Of a DNA stretch of 64,000 bases, positions 3,372 to 62,861 are shown piece after piece. How positions within the stretch are numbered: the first letter of the stretch is position 1; every line of letters starts with the position of its first letter. This DNA comes from Eledone cirrhosa (taxonomy: Eukaryota). Location of the stretch: contig OZ024740.1 of assembly GCA_964016885.1 (NCBI GenBank), positions 197,718,001-197,782,000 of the forward strand. The letters are read 5' to 3'. The notes under the pieces were generated by a model that was given only the letters and a program-made list of their open reading frames with translations, was not told where the DNA came from and searched no databases. Made by a program: the position numbers and the translations under genes.

Positions 3372-3488
3372 TGTATGAAGATAGAGAGAAAAAATAATAA
3401 TTGCGGATGAATATTCTAACGTCAAAAAGGTGTATGTTGATAAGTATTGTGGCAATTTCAAAATTAACGATGGTTTGGTACTTCTGAA

Positions 3489-5162
3489 GTGATTGGCTGG
3501 TTCAACAAATTGGATAATAAAAACAAACTAAAATTTATTCAATTTGATATTGCCAGCTACTATTCCTCCATTTCGCCTTCACTTCTCAATAATGCTCTAT
3601 CTTTCGCACTTAAATATTCTGACATCACCACAGATGAACTTCACATCATCCTCACCGCACATAAAACCATCCTAGAGTTCAACAACGAATATTGGACCAG
3701 AGCCGACACCTCTAACAACTTCGACATCACAATGGGAGCATCCGATTCATCCCAATTGACTGATTTAATTGGTATCTTTATTTTGAACTCTTTGAGTCGG
3801 AAAATTCCTCAACTTCGTGGTGGAATTTATCGTGACGATGGACTCTTTACTATCTTAAATTGCAATATAGTTAACCTTAATATTATTAAGAACAATATAC
3901 GTAATCTCTTTAACCAACATAACCTAAAAATTGAATTTGATAATAGTATCAAACTAGCTAATTTCTTGGATGTATCTCTTAATCTTGACACTGGCCTATA
4001 TTACCCTTACCATAAAAACAATGAGAACCTAAACTATGTTAACTTTAAATCTAACCATCCTACCAATATCAAGAATGCTATAGTTAGTAATATTGGAAAA
4101 AGAATATCTAACATATCTTCTAATAAAAACATCTTTGATGCTAACGCCAATTACTATAATAACGCACTTTCTAAAGCCGGCTATCCAGATAAAATCAAAT
4201 ATAGTAAAGAAACAAATTCTAGAAAAACTTACAGTAGAATAATTAATCATGATCATTCCAATAATTTTAATAAAAGACCTAGATACAAAAACATAATCTG
4301 GTATAATGCTCCTTTCTCCATCCCTATTAATAACAATATTCCTAAATTATTTTTTAGTGCCTTAAATAAATGCTTCCCTCCCTCACATATCTATAGTAAA
4401 ATATTTAACAAACACACCATCAAATTTTCTTATTCTACATCCTCCAATATTTCCAACATCATCTCTAAACACAACAATAAAATACTAAATACTAAATCTC
4501 TTCCTTCCAACATTGAATTTCATAATAATAGTAATAGTACTCCCGACGTCATTGTAAACCCTAGGCTAACTTCTGTAAACCCAAATACAACGTCAAACAC
4601 AACTTCGCTAAATGTTCATAATCCAACTCTAAATCAAGAAACTATTATTCCTATTATTCCTATCGCAAACAACTTCTCCAATCCAATTCCTTCTATAGAT
4701 AACACTAGGTCACTCATTAATAATCTCTCTAATTGCAACTGCCGCATTAAAAATAAATGTCCTCTCAACAACTATTGTCTTGATAAAAATTTAATTTATG
4801 AATGTAAAGTTATAACTAGCACCAATTCCTTCACCTATTTTGGCTCCACTTCCACCTCTTTTAAAGCTCGTCTCTATAATCACCATTCATCTTTTAAATA
4901 CAAACTTAAAAGAACCAACACGGCTCTCTCAGAACTCATATGGTCCTTGAAAGACAAAAACATTAAATATACCATCTTTTGGAAGAAGGTTTCTTCTGCA
5001 TTCTCATACTTGAACAGCTCTCTATCTAAAATCTGTAATCTCTGCCTAAATGAAAAATTTACCATTATCTCTAATCTAGATTCTATAATAAATAGACGTA
5101 CAGATTTGTTTTCTATCTGCCTGCATAAATTCCATAGGACTTTTCACAAAGTATACAGCTAA
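3489..5162 (+). CDS. PLE (Nematis-type) reverse transcriptase + GIY-YIG endonuclease, 5'-truncated
   Basis: FIQFDIASYYSSI, FDITMGASDS and GIYRDDGL RT motifs; CNCRIKNKCPLNNYC linker; NLIYECKV..YFGST (GIY-YIG); RLYNH; CNLCLNEK..INRR..CLH. Confidence 0.92.
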   Translation: MIGWFNKLDNKNKLKFIQFDIASYYSSISPSLLNNALSFALKYSDITTDELHIILTAHKTILEFNNEYWTRADTSNNFDITMGASDSSQLTDLIGIFILNSLSRKIPQLRGGIYRDDGLFTILNCNIVNLNIIKNNIRNLFNQHNLKIEFDNSIKLANFLDVSLNLDTGLYYPYHKNNENLNYVNFKSNHPTNIKNAIVSNIGKRISNISSNKNIFDANANYYNNALSKAGYPDKIKYSKETNSRKTYSRIINHDHSNNFNKRPRYKNIIWYNAPFSIPINNNIPKLFFSALNKCFPPSHIYSKIFNKHTIKFSYSTSSNISNIISKHNNKILNTKSLPSNIEFHNNSNSTPDVIVNPRLTSVNPNTTSNTTSLNVHNPTLNQETIIPIIPIANNFSNPIPSIDNTRSLINNLSNCNCRIKNKCPLNNYCLDKNLIYECKVITSTNSFTYFGSTSTSFKARLYNHHSSFKYKLKRTNTALSELIWSLKDKNIKYTIFWKKVSSAFSYLNSSLSKICNLCLNEKFTIISNLDSIINRRTDLFSICLHKFHRTFHKVYS

Positions 5163-6342: not shown

Positions 6343-6413
6343 TGTTTTATCTGATGAAAACACAAATATTATTGCATGATGATGTTTGTTTTTGAAATGC
6401 GCATAATAAAATA
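6343..6413 (+). ncRNA. Type I hammerhead ribozyme motif with palindromic stem III
   Basis: TGTTTTAT-CTGATGA(6351-6357)-stem II (CAAATATT..GATGTTTG)-GAAA(6394-6397)-TGCGCA-TA-ATAAAA. Minimal hammerheads are a known feature of PLE pseudo-LTRs. Confidence 0.82.
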
Positions 6414-6649: not shown

Positions 6650-6653
6650 GGAG

Positions 6654-7880
6654 GTGAGTTTTAAGCCTAATGAGAAACTTATTTACGTAGATACCAAGTC
6701 TAATCACCCTAGATCAATATTAAACTCTATCTCTAAGGGGGTGTCCAATAGAATCTCTAGTCTGTCCTATGACGCAAACATATTTAGCAAAAACTCACAA
6801 TATTACAATCAAGCATTAGCTAGCTCCGGCCATAATATAGAAATTGAGTTCCTACCTAAGAAAACACATAGCTACAACATCATCTCGCACAACATGTCCA
6901 TGAGGAAATCTAATAATAGGAATAGCAACCACAAGTACACCAAAGCGGAGGGTGCCACCGGAAGTAACCATTACCATGGAAACTACTGTGAGGCCTTAGG
7001 AGGAAGCAACACACCAAACACTAAAAGCAAAAATAGAAGAAGAAATAATACATTTTTCAACCCTCCTTTCAACCTAAATGTCTCCACCAACATACCTAGG
7101 GATTTCTTCTCACTACTAGATAAAAACTTCCCTCTAGGACACAAGTACCACAACCTCTTAAACAAAAACACCATTAAAATCTCATACTCTACGACGCCTA
7201 ACTTAGCATACCACATAGCTAGCAGCAATAATAGTAAAATTAGTTCTTACTTCCAACAAACAAAATCACAACGGGATGCAAACCCTCTAAATACCACTGT
7301 AGCAAGCAACAATAGCAACGGCAGTAACAATAGAAATAACACTAGTATAAGTAATAACACCAGGGTTGTCAACCCGAACACCCAAAATCCTATATCCACC
7401 ACACAGACTTCCGCATTGCATTATAACCAGTGGACTAACGCACAGAATAATTGTAACTGTAGAGCTAATAGAACCTGCCCTTTAGATAAAAAATGCCTAA
7501 CCAAGGATGTCATATACTCATGCACAGTCACGACTAATAACTCTTCAGAAACCTATGTAGGCTCCACTTCTAACTGCTTCAAAATCAGATATAACTCGCA
7601 CATCCACTCGTTCAAAAAGCACAGCCTAGCCAACTCCACCTCACTTTCTAGCTACATACACTATCTAAAATCTAAAAATAAACCATACACACTCAAATGG
7701 GAAGTGATAGGCAGCGCGACCTCATACAAACCACCTAATAAATTCTGTAACCTCTGTATACTAGAGACACACAATATTATCTTCTCCAACCGTAACCTAC
7801 TTAACAAAAAATCTGAGGTGTTTACAACTTGCCAGCACCGCCTCAGACATTCCTTCCAAAACTTTAAGCCCTATATATAG
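6654..7880 (+). CDS. PLE (Nematis-type family 2) RT thumb + GIY-YIG, 5'-truncated
   Basis: KPNEKLIYVDTKSNHP, FFNPPFN, KISYSTTPNL, CNCRANRTCPLDKKC, DVIYSCTV..YVGST, RYNSH, CNLCILE..LNKKSE..CQH. The start codon is probably an artefact of the truncation junction. Confidence 0.9.
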   Translation: MSFKPNEKLIYVDTKSNHPRSILNSISKGVSNRISSLSYDANIFSKNSQYYNQALASSGHNIEIEFLPKKTHSYNIISHNMSMRKSNNRNSNHKYTKAEGATGSNHYHGNYCEALGGSNTPNTKSKNRRRNNTFFNPPFNLNVSTNIPRDFFSLLDKNFPLGHKYHNLLNKNTIKISYSTTPNLAYHIASSNNSKISSYFQQTKSQRDANPLNTTVASNNSNGSNNRNNTSISNNTRVVNPNTQNPISTTQTSALHYNQWTNAQNNCNCRANRTCPLDKKCLTKDVIYSCTVTTNNSSETYVGSTSNCFKIRYNSHIHSFKKHSLANSTSLSSYIHYLKSKNKPYTLKWEVIGSATSYKPPNKFCNLCILETHNIIFSNRNLLNKKSEVFTTCQHRLRHSFQNFKPYI

Positions 7881-17642: not shown

Positions 17643-18132
17643 TGGTAAACGGAATAGAAAATGCTGACAAATTGTTCACAGTTGAAAAATGGTTTAATTA
17701 GGAATAAAAGAGTATTAGTGATTGTATGGGTTAGCATTCAGTTGTGGTTTTAAGTTTTTAAGTTTTTACCGGTTGCGCATTTCTAAATGCTTTTCAAAAA
17801 TAATTTTGAGATAGAGTGTCCGTGCTGTTTGCTCTGATCTGATTAGTTTTGGGAATTCTACCTGTTTTTATGTTAAAAAAGTGGCTCCAGCGTTATTTTT
17901 GTGTTGCAAAAATGCTTGTGGTCAAAACAATTTTGATTGGTCGGTAGAGGTCATGTGAATGTAAAAAGTTGATTTTGCGCCAAGACTGTTTTTATGTTAA
18001 AAAAGTGGCTCCAGCAAAAATTCTTGGTCAAAACAATTTTGATTGGTCGGTAGAGGTCATGTGGATAAACAATTGGTTTTGCGCCAAGATTGAGAAATGA
18101 CTCTTTCACAACAAATATGTGTGTGTGTGTGT

Positions 18133-19349: not shown

Positions 19350-19875
19350 ACACACACACACACATATTTGTTGTGAAAGAGTCATTTCTCAATCTTGGCG
19401 CAAAACCAATTGTTTATCCACATGACCTCTACCGACCAATCAAAATTGTTTTGACCAAGAATTTTTGCTGGAGCCACTTTTTTAACATAAAAACAGTCTT
19501 GGCGCAAAATCAACTTTTTACATTGACATGACCTCTACCGACCAATCAAAATTGTTTTGACCACAAGCATTTTTGCAACACAAAAATAACGCTGGAGCCA
19601 CTTTTTTAACATAAAAACAGGTAGAATTCCCCAAACTAATCAGATCAGAGCAAACAGCACGGACACTCTATCTCAAAATTATTTTTGAAAAGCATTTAGA
19701 AATGCGCAACCGGTAAAAACTTAAAAACTTAAAACCACAACTGAATACTAACCCATACAATCACTAATACTCTTTTATTCCTAATTAAACCATTTTTCAA
19801 CTGTGAACAATTTGTCAGCATTTTCTATTCCGTTTACCAATATATAATAACTTGTGTGTTACACCTCTATTCTTT

Positions 19876-54880: not shown

Positions 54881-55357
54881 AAAAAATAGAGGTGTAACAC
54901 ACGAGTTGTGATATATTAGTAAAAGGAAAAGAAAATGCTAACAAATTTTTCCCAGTGAAAAATAGTTTAATTAGGAATAAGTATAAATTAGTAATTGTTT
55001 CTACTTCAGGCACAAGGCCAGCAATTACCCAGTGTTTTACTGGTACTTTATTTTATCGACCCGTAAGGATGAAAGGCAAAGTCAACCTCGGCGGGATTTG
55101 AACTCAGATCGTAAAGGGACGTAACTATGCTGGAAAGCATGGCGTCTGACCCTCTACAGATACTGCCAATCCACCACCCTTATAAATTAGTAATAAGTAT
55201 TGGTTAGTATTCAGTTTTAGTTTTAAGTTTTTACCGGTTGCGCATTTCTAATGCTTTTCAAAAATAATTTTGAGATAGAGCGCTCGTGATGTTTGCTCTA
55301 ATCAGATTAGAGCAAACATCACGAGCGCTCTATCTCAAAATTATTTTTGAAAAGCAT

Positions 55358-55359
<2 letters not shown>
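54878..55359 (-). mobile_element. Diverged Neptune-1 terminal fragment, interrupted by a SINE and ending in a perfect palindrome
   Basis: ATAGAGGTGTAACACAC matches the reverse complement of the 3' end at 19850-19880. Arms 55249-55303 / 55305-55359. Confidence 0.75.
54996..55180 (-). mobile_element. SINE family M with 14-bp TSD
   Basis: TSD TATAAATTAGTAAT at 54982-54995 and 55181-55194. Confidence 0.92.
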
Positions 55360-55388
<29 letters not shown>

Positions 55389-55852
55389 GTAAACGGAATA
55401 GAAAATGCTGACAAATTGTTCACAGTTGAAAAATGGTTTAATTAGGAATAAAAGAGTATTAGTGATTGTATGGGTTAGTATTCAGTTGTGGTTTTAAGTT
55501 TTTAAGTTTTTACCGGTTGCGCATTTCTAAATGCTTTTCAAAAATAATTTTGAGATAGAGTGTCCGTGCTGTTTGCTCTGATCTGATTAGTTTTGGGAAT
55601 TCTACCTGTTTTTATGTTAAAAAAGTGGCTCCAATTTGCAAAAATTCTTGTGGTCAAAACAATTTTGATTGGTCGGTAGAGGTCATGTGAATGTAAAAAA
55701 TTGATTTTGCGCCAAGACTGTTTTTATGTTAAAAAAGTGGCTCCAATTTGCAAAAATTCTTGTGGTCAAAACAATTTTGATTGGTCGGTAGAGGTCATGT
55801 GAATAAAAAATTGGTTTTGCGCCAAGATTGAGAAATGACTCTTTCACAACAA

Positions 55853-56146: not shown

Positions 56147-58012
56147 GGAGTACAGTAGTCCTAATGGAGACAGAATTCTATATCAACTTAGCGCTCTCCA
56201 CTTTGGAAAACGAAACATACTACGAAAAGGCTGAACACTACAATCAACAGAAAATTATGAGAAACCTAAAAACTCTAATCAACGAATACAAAGAAGGACT
56301 CACTAACAAGGAATTCAGCTTCATCACAGACTTCACAAGTAAATCCAGCCCTTTCTACGGTATCCCTAAAGTACATAAAAGCGAATCAATAAGTAAGGCA
56401 TGCAAGGAAGCCACAGACAGTCATCAATGTCCCCTCACCCAATGATCTCAAATTAAGACCTATAATAGCAGGCCCCGCTTGCGAAACGCACCGTCTTAGC
56501 AACTTCATTGATACCCTTCTCAAACCCTTCCTCAAGCACATCAAAAGCTATATAAGGGACGACCTAGATATGCTCAATCACCTCCCTAATATGCCACTTT
56601 CTGAACAAACCCTACTAGTGACGTTCGATGTAGTCAACCTATACTCCAACATCCCCCACAACCTAGGAATAGAAGCTATCCAATTCTGGCTGGATAATTT
56701 CCACAATGAACTCCCACAACGCATCAAAAAAGAATTCGTGATAGAGGGACTCAAATTTATCTTGGAGAACAATTACTTCGTTTTCAATAACAAACCCTAC
56801 AGGCAGAAATCTGGGACCGCTATGGGAACGAAAACAGCCCCCACTTATGCCAACCTAGTCATGGGATACCTGGAAATCACCCTCTACACTAAAGTCCTAA
56901 CCAAATTTGGAGACACCCTCCACTTACACATTGAAAGGAACTGGAAGCGATATCTAGATGACTGCTTCATCCTTTGGCACGAAAACATCGAAAAACTTAA
57001 AGAATTTCACACCCTTATAAATGGGCTCAACACAAATATTAACTTCACGATGGAATACAGCCATCAACAACTCCCCTTCCTCGACATCCTCATTAAGATC
57101 CATAACAAAAAAATAGAAACAGACATATACTACAAGCCCACAGACTCCAAGCAATATCTCCCCTTCAACTCTTGCCACCCTAGACACGTTAAAATTAATA
57201 TTCCCTACAACTTAGCCAAGAGAATCTGTACTATAGTCTCCAATAAAAACATCTGCTACTTACGGCTACAAGAACTAAAGGACACACTCATAGGCAGGGA
57301 CTACCCTGCATCACTAATTGACAATGGAATCCAACGTGCCCTAAAACTCAGTACCCAGGACCTTAGACACCCTAAAGTAAATCAACCAAAACTAAAAGCT
57401 CTTCCATACATCTCCACACACAACCCCCTCAACAATGAGGCCTTTGACACCATCCTCCAGAACATCCCTGTATTGAAAAAGGACCATAGAATGAACCAAA
57501 TTCTACGAACACACGATATCATAAAGAGCAAAAGACAATCCAAGTCAATGAAAAACATCTTAACACATGCCAAAGTACTACCAACCACAACAACGAAACC
57601 CACAGTAAAAAAATGCGATAGACCCAACTGTGGCATTTGCATCAACCTAATAGAGGGTTCGGAATTCTATTTCAAAGATGGACAACGTTTTATAGTAAAA
57701 CACAATTTCACATGTGCATCGGAAAATCTAATATATGTATTAACTTGTTCAGGTTGTCGAGAACAATACATAGGCCAGACCAAAAACAGCCTCCGCCAAC
57801 GCATGACTGTCCATAGATCTCAAATCAAAATACGGGAATACAGGAAAATACCACTGAGTGAACACATTGATACCTGTGCCGCCCAAAATCATCCCGACTT
57901 CAGAATCTTTCCCCTCTACAAATTTAAAGATAATGCCACCCACACCCAGCGCATCAGCAAGGAATCTTACTTCATTAACAAATACGGACCCCGTCTAAAC
58001 ACTTCTCCCTAA
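56147..58012 (+). pseudogene. Neptune-type RT + GIY-YIG, 5'-truncated at the (DK)GSTVV motif, frameshift ~56415; open frame 56570..58012
   Basis: FYGIPKVHK, LRPIIAGP, FDVVNLYSNIP, GTAMGTKTAPTYANLVMG, WKRYLDDCF, LPFLDI, KCDRPNCGIC, FTCASENLIYVLTCSGCREQYIGQT, RMTVHR. Confidence 0.93.
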
Positions 58013-58823: not shown

Positions 58824-59233
58824 TTGTTGTGAAAGAGTCATTTCTCAATCTTGGCGCGAAACCAATTTTTATTCACATGACCTCTACCGACCAATCAAAA
58901 TTGTTTTGACCACAAGAATTTTTGCAAATTGGAGCCACTTTTTTAACATAAAAACAGTCTTGGCGCAAAATCAATTTTTTACATTCACATGATCTCTACC
59001 GACCAATCAAAATTGTTTTGACCACAAGAATTTTTGCAAATTGGAGCCACTTTTTTAACATAAAAACAGGTAGAATTCCCAAAACTAATCAGATCAGAGC
59101 AAACAGCACGGACACTCTATCTCAAAATTATTTTTGAAAAGCATTTAGAAATGCGCAACCGGTAAATACTTAAAAACTTAAAACCACAACTGAATACTAA
59201 CCCATACAATTACTAATACTCTTTTATTCCTAA

Positions 59234-60349
59234 CTAGCAGTAAAGCCCGGCGTTGCTCGGGGTCGCTCAGTAGCTGTGTTAAAGTTACAATGTTAAGTTT
59301 CTTTTTTGGCTTAAAAACTGTAGTGTCTACTGTGCAGACTTGCATGTGGTGTTTTTGATTAATATTCCCTCAACCAACAATATGCCTTATGAAGTTAAGA
59401 AAACATAACGATAACCCGACTGTTATAACAAAAGAGGATGCTGGGGATAAAAACTGCACTGGTTATTTATTAACAAAGATCGAAAATGTAAACACTGCAA
59501 CGCAGAGAAAAACATTAGCGTAACCAAATTATCAGTTATGTCTGTCTGCACGCCTATATCACCTCTCTGCACGACTATCTGTCTGCACGCCTATATCACC
59601 TCTCTGCACGACTGTCTGTCTGCACGCCTATATCACCTCTCTGCACGACTGTCTGTCTGCACGCCTATATCACCTCTCTGCACGACTATCTGTCTGCACG
59701 CGTATATCACCTCTCTGCACGACTGTCTGTCTGCACGACTGTCTGTCTGCACGCCTAACGAAGTTTACAGATACATATATTTTAAATAAACTTATATAAT
59801 TTTTGCTTTTTTTTACGAAATATTTGCTTGTTTTACGTAGTCTTTAAATAGACTTGTTTTCAAGTAAAAATATTGTTTTAAAATGTTTTTAAATGGAAAT
59901 GAAGCTTGTTTTACGTAGTCTTTAAATAGAGTTGTTTTCAAGTAAAAATATTGTTTTAAAATGCTTTTAAATGGAAATGAAGCAAAACGGAAGCTTAGTG
60001 TTCGAACTGATGAATTTTGCAGGTCAATATTTTGCTGGCTCGACAACTGTTCGTGTATTGTGTTAATGTCATTTTAAACGCTGAGAAAGCCAGCGTAATT
60101 TTTTACGTAAGACGCTCAATGTAAACAGAACAAAGGGAAATAACTGATAACTTACGCTCAAAAATCGATACATTATATTCGATTTCGTCACATAGGGTGG
60201 GTCAATTTGAAATATTTTTTTCCGATGTCTTCGCTAGGGCTCAATGTACAAGTATAGCAATTTCGGTGCAATTCCGTGAGAGATTCTAAGAGGAGATGTG
60301 TGCCAAAAATCGATAGACAGACAGACAACCACAGTTTTATATATATAGA
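59234..60349 (-). mobile_element. Non-autonomous Helitron inserted precisely at an AT dinucleotide
   Basis: Minus strand A|TCTATATATATAAA ... CCCGAGCAACGCCGGG..GCTAG|T. Removing it restores CCTAATTAAACC as in the other pLTR copies. Confidence 0.9.
59540..59756. repeat. ~37-bp minisatellite inside the Helitron
   Basis: About 5-6 head-to-tail copies of TCTGTCTGCACGCCTATATCACCTCTCTGCACGAC. Confidence 0.9.
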
Positions 60350-60445
60350 TTAAACCATTTTTCAACTGTGAACAATTTGTCAGCATTTTCTATTCCGTTT
60401 ACCAATATAATATATAATAACTTGTGTGTTACACCTCTATTCTTT

Positions 60446-60481
<36 letters not shown>

Positions 60482-60757
60482 TTTGCTTGTTTTACGTAGT
60501 CTTTAAATAGACTTGTTTTCAAGTAAAAATATTGTTTTAAAATGCTTTTAAATGGAAATGAAGCTTGTTTTACGTAGTCTTTAAATAGAGTTGTTTTCAA
60601 GTAAAAATATTGTTTTAAAATGCTTTTAAATGGAAATGAAGCAAAACGGAAGCTTAGTGTTCGAACTGATGAATTTTGCAGGTCAATATTTTGCTGGCTC
60701 GACAACTGTTCGTGTATTGTGTTAATGTCATTTTAAACGCTGAGAAAGCCAGCGTAA

Positions 60758-61600
60758 TTCACCTCCAACCATCCAAAGCACACGAAGACGAACATTCCTT
60801 TTAACCTAGCAAGAAGAATTTGCACAATTGTCTCCAATTATGAAACGCGAAATAAAAGACTTCAAGAATTAAAGGAAATTCTACTTGAGAGAGAGTACCC
60901 ACTATTACTAATAAATAATGGAATAGAAAGGGCTAAAGCAATAGGCATTGATGAATTACGGAAACAGAAACAAATTCAAGGTACGTCCAATATTCTATCA
61001 TATATCTCAACACACAACCCAAGAAATGCGGAAGCTTACAACACTATTCACAATAACACCCCACTACTAAAACAAAACCCAAGAACAAAAAAAGCCCTTG
61101 AAACACACAAAATAATCAAAAGCAAAAGACAACCAAAATCACTGAAAACATTACTCACCAATGCCAAATTACCTACCACAAACCCACAACCAAGTATCAA
61201 AAAATGTGGTCGCTCTAATTGTGGAACCTGCACTCACCTCATTGAAGGCAACACGTATACATTTAAATCAGGACAAAATTTTACTGTAAAAAATCACTTC
61301 ACTTGCTCAACAAAAAATCTAATTTATGCCATTAAATGTAAAGGATGCAATGAAGATTATATAGGACAAACTAAACTCACACTCAGAAACAGAATGACAG
61401 TTCATCGCCAACAATTACGAGATCCAACCACGAGACAAATACCACTAAGTGCACATCTAGACATTTGCGCAAGTAATAAGACACCCAAATTCCAAGTCTT
61501 CCCATTTTACCTTTGCGCTAACAATACAACAGAACAAATGCGAATAAATAAGGAAAATATGTTTATTCAAAAATATAGACCAACATTAAATAAGGTTTAA
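60758..61600 (+). CDS. Neptune-type family 2 RT thumb + GIY-YIG, 5'-truncated open frame without a start codon
   Basis: Manual translation is open from 60758: FTSNHPKHTKTNIPFNLARRICTIVS..KCGRSNCGTC..FTCSTKNLIYAIKCKGCNEDYIGQT..RMTVHR..KYRPTLNKV*. Confidence 0.9.
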   Translation, partial: FTSNHPKHTKTNIPFNLARRICTIVSNYETRNKRLQELKEILLEREYPLLLINNGIERAKAIGIDELRKQKQIQGTSNILSYISTHNPRNAEAYNTIHNNTPLLKQNPRTKKALETHKIIKSKRQPKSLKTLLTNAKLPTTNPQPSIKKCGRSNCGTCTHLIEGNTYTFKSGQNFTVKNHFTCSTKNLIYAIKCKGCNEDYIGQTKLTLRNRMTVHRQQLRDPTTRQIPLSAHLDICASNKTPKFQVFPFYLCANNTTEQMRINKENMFIQKYRPTLNKV

Positions 61601-62091
61601 TATACATTATGTCAACACCACAATATGACATACACACACACACATAACACCTACTTTAGAAAATAAAAACCCGAACTAAATAAACCTTAAACATACGTTT
61701 GCACTGGCAATACAACAGCAAACACGAAAAAGTCAGGAAAATATGTTCATTCAAAAATATTCCTACTAAAGGAATCATTTTCCTACACACACACATACAC
61801 ACACACAATATATATATATATATATATATATTCTCTTCATCTTAACATGTTAACCATACTCCCACACACATAACACCCATACACACACATAAAAACCCCC
61901 ACACCTACAACACCCTCCCCATTTCTACTAATAGAACCACTTTCCTACACACATATATATATACACACACAAAAAAAATATATATTCTCTCTATCTAACA
62001 TACTCGCACACACACACATAACACCCATATACACACACACACAACTCCCTCCCCCATCTCTACTAATAGAATCATCTTCCAATACACACAT

Positions 62092-62126
<35 letters not shown>

Positions 62127-62652
62127 AGCACACAAATAAACACATATCTTCAGTCTCAATAGAAAATCTGAACTCTGACACCTGAACTCTGACAGCTGGC
62201 CATATTCACTGAACCAGAACATTTCTCCCAATCCCTTTTCCCTTGACCACTATCTCTCCATTGTCATAACATTCACTATAAAGACTACAGAATAGTTTTC
62301 CAAATAAGGGCGCAAAAATGTAATGAAAACTTGTTCACGTGACAGCCAAATTTCATTTATAACCAACCAAAAAAAAAAAAAAAAAAAAAAAAAGCCTTCG
62401 TGAGCCTCATTTTTTCAAGTAAAAAGAAATTCAAACACTCATATATGAAAAAACAACCTGTGACAACCCCCCTCTCTTATTTGAAGAACTATTGTAACGC
62501 GAACTGGCGCGAAATTTATTATAATTATTGACAAACCAATCAAATTACTTCTCGAAAAACCTGGTTTTCGAGCCAGTTTTTCCATATAAAACAAGTAACA
62601 TTTAGAGACCAACCAGATGTGAGAAAAACCACAGACCCTCCATCTCAACTCA

Positions 62653-62690
62653 CCTTTTGAAAAGCAGAAGAACTGCGAAACCGGTAAAGG
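62653..62690 (+). ncRNA. Minimal hammerhead ribozyme with compensatory U3-A8 core
   Basis: CCTT-TTGAAAA-GCAG-AAGAA-CTGC-GAAA-CCGG-TA-AAGG. Stems I, II and palindromic III are intact, G10.1-C11.1 is kept, GUA cleavage triplet. Confidence 0.75.
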
Positions 62691-62827
62691 AACCAAATAA
62701 ATATATATATTTAAAAAAAAAATAAGACTCCAGTTGCATTTTCGATTTCATCTCTTTTTCTTTATACTTCCACTCGTGTAGGACACCTCGGTTATTTTTC
62801 ATTTTGTAAAAAAAACCTCACTTTCTA

Positions 62828-62861
<34 letters not shown>

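What the first reader, a model, noticed from the sequence alone, without database searches (positions are those of the whole stretch)
59131..62690. Neptune elements carry hammerheads with a compensatory U3-A8 core (UUGAAAA)
Seen: family 2 has CCTT-TTGAAAA-GCAG..CTGC-GAAA-CCGG-TA-AAGG (62653-62690). Family 1, whose 3' UTR is otherwise dissimilar, has TTT-TTGAAAA-GCATTT..AAATGC-GCAA-CCGG-TA-AA in five copies at the equivalent position near the 3' end. Established: C3-G8 is a tertiary Watson-Crick pair in the hammerhead core, and U3-A8 is a tolerated but rare swap. Both positions change together in two families, while stem II differs in sequence yet still pairs and ACCGGT stem III is kept. This argues for selection on a non-canonical ribozyme that CUGANGA searches would miss. 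Family 1 also fixes A13C, which may be a further variant or loss of catalysis with retained structure (inference).
Basis: partly seen in the sequence, partly recalled or inferred. Interest (0 to 1): 0.75.

Follow-up and report, generated by a model that had tools for sequence, protein, structure and literature searches.

The report
Variant hammerhead ribozyme in Penelope retrotransposons
This hammerhead-shaped RNA motif sits in about 25,000 copies of related Penelope-type jumping genes; its U-A core swap is already published, but one young family also carries a fixed extra core change, and the ends of the copies suggest that full-length daughters are likely copied from an RNA circle that the motif would make by cutting itself.

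Summary
The motifs are real and family-wide: 24,860 exact matches, control 0. The headline is not new. U3-A8 minimal hammerheads in Penelope-like elements were published in 2014 (about 1,300 hits, same UUGAAAA core), and this scan noted them before on other DNA. The two families are homologous around the motif (72% over 126 nt; RT-EN 56%), so the swap is probably one inherited event, also kept in two older families with covarying stems. What is added: (1) C13 is fixed in young, ORF-intact family 1 (11,783 versus 135), and I did not find it in print; (2) the motif lies in the likely 5' leader, about 43 nt after a probable start site. Of copies reaching that site, 121 of 189 terminal copies stop there, but only 1 of 20 full-length copies does; almost none starts at the cut site. 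This fits uncut single-hammerhead RNAs giving dead stubs and a cut, re-joined circle giving live tandems, but strand transfer is not excluded. Cleavage is untested. Verdict: new variant of a known kind, moderate interest.

The parts
56393..58012 (+). Family 1 RT-EN frame, 5'-truncated (539 aa; the full frame is 784 aa), with CX4CxxC linker and GIY-YIG
58846..59089 (+). Family 1 pseudo-LTR promoter region: two ~110-bp repeats, each with an E2F-like site (58851, 58960) and a CCAAT box (58890, 59002); TATA-like word at 59059 (motif names recalled, function inferred)
59090..59095 (+). Inferred transcription start of family 1 (about 43 nt before U3); pile-up of stub 5' ends
59131..59167 (+). Family 1 hammerhead-like motif, U3-A8 and C13; predicted cut 59164/59165; stem I only 2 bp in this copy
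59165..60450 (+). Rest of the family 1 leader and tail, interrupted by an unrelated ~1.1-kb insertion (about 59237-60348)
60758..61600 (+). Family 2 RT-EN frame, 5'-truncated (280 aa; the full frame is 775 aa), with CX4CxxC linker and GIY-YIG
62504..62613 (+). Family 2 pseudo-LTR promoter region: E2F-like site 62504, CCAAT 62535, TATA-like 62583 (names recalled, function inferred)
62614..62619 (+). Inferred transcription start of family 2; pile-up of stub 5' ends at 62612-62624; depth step in public contigs
62653..62690 (+). Family 2 hammerhead-like motif, U3-A8, normal GAAA, palindromic ACCGGT stem III; predicted cut 62686/62687
62687..62830 (+). Family 2 leader downstream of the cut; short-arm copies end at 62766, long-arm copies near 62830 in (TA)n (PLE tail)
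19682..19718 (+). Family 1 motif, complete copy
17764..17800 (-). Family 1 motif, inverted partner of the 19685 copy
55508..55544 (-). Family 1 motif in the inverted arm of the 56393 element
55229..55264 (-). Family 1 (second subfamily) motif in a head-to-head stub centred near 55304

Best explanation
The motif is a minimal type I hammerhead fold with a U3-A8 core in the terminal repeat of two related, recently active Penelope-like retrotransposon families, and it likely works as a slow, dimer- and probably protein-assisted ribozyme that cuts unit-length RNA at both ends so that it can close into a circular template. Shown: the motif, its fixation, stem covariation, its place 170-190 nt before ORF1, and where the copies begin. 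Inferred steps: (1) Transcription starts about 43 nt upstream of U3. (2) RNA from a lone pseudo-LTR has one hammerhead, which cannot form stem III alone, so it stays uncut; reverse transcription starts inside the leader and runs off at the start site, giving the abundant stubs. (3) RNA from a tandem full-length element has two hammerheads 4.7-4.8 kb apart, which pair through the ACCGGU palindrome and cut; the unit is ligated. (4) Reverse transcription around the circle gives more-than-unit copies with a promoter-bearing upstream repeat, the only daughters that could transpose again. Rare cutting would therefore be enough for selection, and a weak core (U3-A8, plus C13 in family 1) is tolerated.
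For: Family-wide motif: 24,860 matches, control 0. Core letters are invariant in all 14 aligned copies from four lineages (U3, U4, G5, A6, A8, A9, G10.1, A14, A15.1, U16.1), while the surrounding 170 nt are 38-59% identical between families. Covariation score 0.142 against 0.075 +/- 0.019, 0 of 500 shuffles; 4 pairs change on both sides, 32 of 500. Cofolding pairs two copies through the palindrome in both families. Terminal copies: 121 of 189 that reach the start site stop there. Full-length copies: 1 of 20 stops there and 19 run on into the upstream repeat (family 1 13 of 14, family 2 6 of 6; nominal P 2e-7). A circular template was proposed for PLEs by Cervera and de la Pena. A PLE hammerhead cleaved only with its protein. 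A13 changes are reported to cost 10-100-fold, less than changes at C3, G5, G8, G12 or A14.
Against: No cleavage was measured. Copies starting at the cut site are rare: 3 of 146 (family 2) and 1 of 98 (family 1) among terminal copies (P 0.07 for family 2), and 0 of 28 among full-length copies reaching the leader. In the Anolis PLE, hammerhead mutants did not affect insertion in vitro and no reads ended at the cut site. In a pairwise scan of another hammerhead only the G3-C8 swap rescued activity; other doubles in that region were low. PLE minimal hammerheads cleave poorly in vitro. In family 1 the predicted minimum-energy fold does not form stem I (probability 0.0 in the leader, 0.2 in family 2). 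The 19-of-20 result is also expected from strand transfer or read-through templates. Arms of one insertion were counted separately in the terminal set. The shuffle control ignores relatedness.
Confidence: 0.55

Rival explanations
1. The fold is kept as a protein-binding or template-positioning structure and cuts little or not at all. More-than-unit copies arise when reverse transcriptase jumps from the capped 5' end to the matching 3' repeat, as in retroviral strand transfer.
For: Cleavage was dispensable in vitro for another PLE. Very few copies start at the cut site. A changed core (C13) is fixed in a family with many intact frames. Naiad PLEs are reported to spread without canonical hammerheads.
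Against: Catalytic-core letters and the dimer palindrome are kept across lineages whose proteins are about 35-56% identical. The base before the cut was A, C or U in the subfamily majority sequences and in the 14 aligned copies. A jump would have to succeed 19 of 20 times in full-length copies but only 68 of 189 times in terminal copies, although lone-repeat RNAs could explain that gap.
Confidence: 0.25
2. Family 2 still cleaves but family 1 lost catalysis with C13. Its remaining core is recent inertia, and it makes tandems by another route.
For: Hand tally of truncation junctions near the cut: family 2 13 of about 37 in the three positions at the cut, family 1 2 of about 27; Fisher P 0.015. 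The family 1 subfamilies differ by only 5-13%, too little to show purifying selection since C13 arose. No paper found reports C13.
Against: The tallies are by eye from the first 100 rows of 363 and 229 matches and are distorted by A-runs and microhomology. Family 1 shows the same run-through at the start site, 13 of 14. C13 is also seen in a run labelled as another organism.
Confidence: 0.12
3. Full-length daughters come from read-through transcripts (host promoters or multi-unit arrays), with the hammerheads only trimming them.
For: Multi-unit tandems exist (L201, L204, L205). Read-through RNA would have no end at the start site.
Against: A strong pile-up at a TATA-preceded site points to an active internal promoter. 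The upstream units seen are mostly 5'-truncated.
Confidence: 0.06
4. The conserved TTTGAA word is a DNA promoter element (CHR-like, recalled) beside E2F-like and CCAAT sites, and the hammerhead look is incidental.
For: E2F-like and CCAAT words lie upstream in both families. The base before U3 is T in 13 of 14 aligned copies.
Against: This does not explain A8, A9, GAAA, the palindrome or the paired changes in stems I and II. The word lies downstream of the inferred start.
Confidence: 0.02

Closest known systems
Minimal type I hammerheads of metazoan PLE pseudo-LTRs, including the U3-A8 variant of Schistosoma mansoni Cercyon (Cervera and de la Pena 2014, PMC4209133; main text parts 1-2 of 4 and supplement parts 1-2 of 3 read)
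   Same: Location in PLE terminal repeats, short stem I, palindromic stub of stem III, G10.1-C11.1, U3-A8 core; the S. mansoni(4) row has the same UUGAAAA start and is marked PLE-linked.
   Different: No extra base between A9 and G10.1, short stem II (3-6 bp), a 2-nt CG insert in the palindrome, about 25,000 near-identical copies, and C13 in family 1; all 56 rows of their Fig. S3 list GAAA (one AGAAA).
Natural hammerhead core variants (Perreault et al. 2011, PMC3088659; passages and section 8 read)
   Same: C3-G8 covarying to U3-A8 in nature, known to be active in vitro.
   Different: Their named variants include A6C, U13a and U15.1-A16.1; A13C is not named in the section read. Figure 5 itself was not visible.
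Poseidon PAc of Anolis carolinensis (Frangieh et al. 2024, PMC11167929; passages read)
   Same: Hammerhead at the repeat-ORF junction, two internal RT start sites giving a tail, uncut RNA used as template.
   Different: PAc has canonical C3-G8 and no Cys linker (Poseidon clade), and its ORF starts inside the hammerhead. Here the motif is 170-190 nt upstream of a separate ORF1.
Neptune/Nematis-type C-terminal EN+ PLEs (Craig et al. 2021, PMC8557442; passages and figure legends read)
   Same: [quoted passage not shown] 1 legend says ORF1 can be separated by a frameshift.
   Different: Clade not fixed against named references. The legend mentions a pseudoknot at the frameshift; I found no strong hairpin in the next 90 nt and did not test pseudoknots.

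Membership tests
Minimal type I hammerhead of PLEs | Core C3/U3-U4-G5-A6-N7-G8/A8-A9 with a Watson-Crick 3-8 pair | tested here: met
   U3-A8 in 14 of 14 aligned copies; 24,860 matches; 0 of 100 C3 matches have G8
Minimal type I hammerhead of PLEs | G12-A13-A14-A15.1 (families 2, 3, 4) | tested here: met
   GAAA in family 2 and in the majority sequences of the two older families
Minimal type I hammerhead of PLEs | G12-A13-A14-A15.1 (family 1) | tested here: not met
   C13 in 11,783 matches; 135 non-C matches in family 1 context, a mix of A, G and T
Minimal type I hammerhead of PLEs | Stems I and II with covariation | tested here: met
   Stem I TTT/AAA, CCTT/AAGG, ACTT/AAGT, ACT/AGT; stem II third pair A-U or U-A, fourth U-A, G-C or A-U; score 0.142, 0 of 500 shuffles; stem I cells paired only 66%
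Minimal type I hammerhead of PLEs | Palindromic stem III allowing a dimer; U16.1-H17 | tested here: met
   ACCGGT in all four lineages; cofold pairs the palindromes
Minimal type I hammerhead of PLEs | Self-cleavage after H17 | not testable with these tools
   No RNA run to lay; genomic junctions at the cut are rare and ambiguous
Canonical C-terminal EN+ Penelope-like element | RT followed by GIY-YIG endonuclease | tested here: met
   RVT_1 and GIY-YIG hits in both full frames
Canonical C-terminal EN+ Penelope-like element | Pseudo-LTRs, tandem and inverted insertions, tail | tested here: met
   Hammerhead-to-hammerhead 4805 nt and 4689 nt tandems; inverted arms with two 3' ends; 28 of 31 family 2 ORF ends followed by the motif
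Neptune clade | CX2-5CxxC linker between RT and EN | tested here: met
   CX4CxxC in both families; shared in reduced form with Nematis
Neptune clade | RT phylogeny grouping with named Neptune elements | not tested
   The 120 listed homologues carry no clade names; no named reference sequences were on hand

The most novel reading that the evidence does not exclude
A doubly non-canonical hammerhead (U3-A8 plus C13) is catalytically active in vivo with help from the element's own protein. The genome then records two template classes: uncut single-hammerhead RNAs that give dead stubs ending at the start site, and hammerhead-made circles that alone give live tandem daughters. That would be direct genomic evidence that Penelope-like elements need their ribozyme to reproduce, and it would widen the hammerhead consensus at position 13.
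Probability: 0.3. Interest if true: 0.7.

Novelty: new variant of a known kind. Interest (0 to 1): 0.42.

Why it matters
The role of hammerheads in Penelope-like elements is stated as unclear in the papers read. These young families give a cheap test: two homologous, ORF-intact elements differ at one core position (A13 versus C13), and copy ends separate stub-making from daughter-making templates. If C13 cleaves, descriptors that fix GAAA miss real ribozymes. If it does not, a highly successful PLE shows that cleavage is dispensable. The U3-A8 swap itself adds only another host for a published variant.

Tried and rejected
Rfam scan of the window: no hammerhead family among the 150 rows shown of 187, so it was uninformative. 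Sequencing runs: no RNA holder listed; only contigs could be laid, which cannot show RNA ends, and X1/X3 may be the source organism's own samples. Decay of a canonical family was rejected: 0 of 100 C3 matches have G8; with CpG decay allowed there are 8 canonical matches, of which 2 are old family 2 relatives, few enough to be double mutants. A canonical core with the same stem III gave 132 matches against 168 in the control, mostly one unrelated repeat. U3-G8 intermediates were not counted. An intron acceptor at the -43 site was rejected because stubs have no common upstream exon. One search had a miscounted pattern and returned mostly intact copies; it was redone. A stimulatory hairpin after the slippery site was not found (-7.7 to -9.4 kcal/mol over 90 nt). 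Literature searches for A13C/C13 or U3-A8 terms and for octopus PLE hammerheads found no report of C13; the word a13c was in no earlier scan note. Lunse et al. 2017, Nelson and Uhlenbeck 2008, Przybilski and Hammann 2007, Scott 2013 and Arkhipova 2017 were not held (titles partly recalled), so C13 may be in print there, above all in Lunse et al. Passages of PMC6155905, PMC12192606, PMC11014351, PMC6431247 and PMC3846280, and part 1 of 5 of bioRxiv 2026.07.22.740005, added nothing on position 13.
Full report
Observation. The window holds one family 2 motif (62653-62690) and five complete family 1 motifs (U3 at 17797-, 19685+, 55261-, 55541-, 59134+) as described. The core 9-mer occurs 7 times against 0.65 expected. 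In the 3.0-Gb own genome a pattern covering both families has 24,860 exact matches and its control none. With C at position 3 there are 100 matches, and all 100 keep A8; 0.4% is what mutation after insertion would give. Allowing CpG decay, a C3-G8 core in this context gives 8 matches, 2 of them old family 2 relatives. U3-A8 is thus the family state.

The carriers. The motif follows RT plus GIY-YIG frames; 28 of 31 family 2 ORF ends have it 0.9-1.4 kb downstream, and 2 of the 3 misses lacked enough sequence. Both families are young: the 150 best-scoring copies are 98-100% identical to the query, and many have open 784-aa or 775-aa frames. Tandem copies put two motifs 4805 nt and 4689 nt apart. 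In them the upstream motif lies 170-190 nt before the ATG of an ORF1 of about 400-435 aa, which overlaps the RT-EN frame in the -1 frame. Both proteins have a CX4CxxC linker, which fits Neptune or Nematis. I could not place them among named references, so 'Neptune' is likely but untested. The host was not identified; earlier scan notes call it cephalopod-like.

One event, not two. The families are homologous across the motif and the 90 nt before it (72% over 126 nt), their RT-EN proteins are 56% and their ORF1s 44% identical. Two older families share U3-A8, GAAA and ACCGGT with different stems (42 matches, control 0); 5 of 30 of their loci have same-strand RT-EN remnants upstream, about 33-65% identical in short pieces. 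In 14 aligned copies the core letters are invariant, while the surrounding 170 nt are 38-59% identical between families. Stem I reads TTT/AAA, CCTT/AAGG, ACTT/AAGT or ACT/AGT. The covariation score is 0.142 against 0.075 +/- 0.019 (0 of 500 shuffles) and every slid control is lower, but only 4 pairs change on both sides (32 of 500), the aligner left 8 cells of the third stem II pair gapped, and the shuffle ignores relatedness. Selection on an RNA fold is well supported. A single inherited swap is the simplest reading; no tree was built.

Prior art. Cervera and de la Pena 2014 report a U3-A8 covariation in PLE minimal hammerheads of Schistosoma mansoni, about 1,300 hits from a dedicated descriptor, and their supplement shows a PLE-linked row starting UUGAAAA. 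Perreault 2011 reports natural U3-A8. This scan has noted U3-A8 PLE or retrozyme hammerheads several times on other DNA, though not these two sequences. The headline is therefore known.

C13. The GCAA form has 11,783 matches, control 1. In family 1 context only 135 have another base, mixed A, G and T. It is shared by three subfamilies that differ by 5-13%. A contig piece from a run labelled as another organism matches 19667-19725 without a difference. One paper cites a 10-100-fold loss for A13 changes against more than 100-fold for C3, G5, G8, G12 and A14 (PMC4075628, one passage). A pairwise scan of another hammerhead found rescue only for G3-C8 in that region (PMC9901934, passages). I found no report of C13, but several key papers were not held.

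Where copies begin. Among copies found through a motif downstream of the hammerhead, plus partner arms, 80 of 146 (family 2) and 40 of 98 (family 1) begin 33-45 nt before U3, and only 3 and 1 begin at the predicted cut +/-1 (exact-motif subset 46 of 88 and 33 of 91). The pile-up falls on a CAGAT word in both families, about 30 nt after a TATA-like word, and public contigs show a depth step there for family 2. I infer a transcription start, so stubs were copied from uncut RNA, as found in vitro for the Anolis element. Targeted searches for junctions near the cut gave 363 and 229 matches. By eye, 13 of about 37 true junctions in the first 100 family 2 rows fall at the cut, and 2 of about 27 in family 1 (P 0.014 and 0.97, Fisher 0.015). 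I dropped rows that were indels, local duplications or internal deletions of intact motifs. A-runs and microhomology blur this tally. By rough estimate, such copies are about 1% of family 2.

Full-length copies differ. I fetched the upstream region of 87 copies chosen by their protein match (60 family 1, 27 family 2); 68 held ORF1 sequence and 28 reached the leader. None began at the cut. Of the 20 that reached the start site, 1 stopped there and 19 ran on into the upstream repeat, against 121 of 189 stopping among terminal copies (nominal P 2e-7). Three of the family 2 loci were first picked as tandem or inverted pairs, and arms of one insertion count twice in the terminal set. Their template therefore had no end at the start site or at the cut.

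Mechanism (inferred). Stem III is only a palindromic stub; cofolding pairs two motifs through it, as published for PLE hammerheads. RNA from a lone repeat has one motif, stays uncut and gives stubs. RNA from a tandem has two motifs, can cut at both and be ligated, and copying around the circle yields daughters with their own promoter. That would keep the core under selection even at low activity. This is the route proposed in 2014; here it gains a genomic footprint, seen in both families including C13. Strand transfer to the 3' repeat or read-through RNA would leave the same footprint, cleavage was dispensable in vitro for another PLE, and predicted stem I is unstable, above all in family 1. 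I put the cut-and-circle model at 0.55, structure without needed cleavage at 0.25, loss in family 1 only at 0.12, read-through at 0.06 and a DNA promoter word at 0.02.

Verdict. The finding is real and well supported as a PLE minimal hammerhead. U3-A8 is already known; the fixed C13 and the two-template footprint are modest additions that make an open question testable. New variant of a known kind; interest 0.42. The figures of the cited papers, part 3 of the 2014 supplement and the supplements of the other papers were not seen and may bear on the novelty of C13.

Noticed in passing
L205:6624-6633 and L201:5010-5019 (full-length family 1 and 2 copies): ORF1 overlaps the RT-EN frame at a shared CAT TTT TTA GAC site (U UUU UUA heptamer in the ORF1 frame), kept in both families with six T in 29 of 29 copies: a likely programmed -1 frameshift. 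An ORF1 frameshift in PLEs is mentioned in the Fig. 1 legend of PMC8557442.
   Followed up: partly
L205:5299-6663, L201:3853-5079: ORF1 frames (455 and 409 aa stop to stop, 44% identical over the N-terminal 295 aa) have no Pfam match at E 0.1; the C-terminal part is rich in N, Q, R and H.
   Followed up: partly
window 58846-59069 and 62504-62591: The pseudo-LTR promoters carry E2F-like, CCAAT and TATA-like words (names recalled), suggesting cell-cycle or germline-linked transcription.
   Followed up: no
window about 59237-60348: An unrelated ~1.1-kb insertion with internal tandem repeats splits the family 1 leader; its ends look Helitron/DINE-like (recalled, not tested).
   Followed up: no
window 60477-60759 versus 59818-60100: A 283-bp near-identical (99.6%) copy of neighbouring DNA abuts the 5'-truncated end of the family 2 element, as if local flank was copied at insertion.
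   Followed up: no
window 3468-5162, 6651-7880; motifs at 6351(+) and 821(-): Two other PLE frames with a CxCX5C linker (Hydra-type) lie in the window, and the first is followed by a canonical C3-G8 hammerhead with an 8-bp stem I.
   Followed up: partly
L041-L046 (G000:C1:348.86-348.91 Mb): Six family 2 motifs with C3-A8 repeat at a ~9.6-kb period: a tandem segmental array carrying one mutant copy.
   Followed up: no
L353, L356: Two diverged family 2 relatives carry canonical C3-G8; they are either double mutants or traces of an older canonical subfamily.
   Followed up: partly
L291-L320: A different repeat with a canonical CUGAUGA start and GAAACCGGT end makes up most of 132 matches; no RT-EN hit was found in these 30 loci.
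   Followed up: no
window 55244-55364: A perfect-looking 120-bp hairpin is a head-to-head family 1 stub folding back near the inferred start site; Rfam scores it as a microRNA precursor below threshold.
   Followed up: yes
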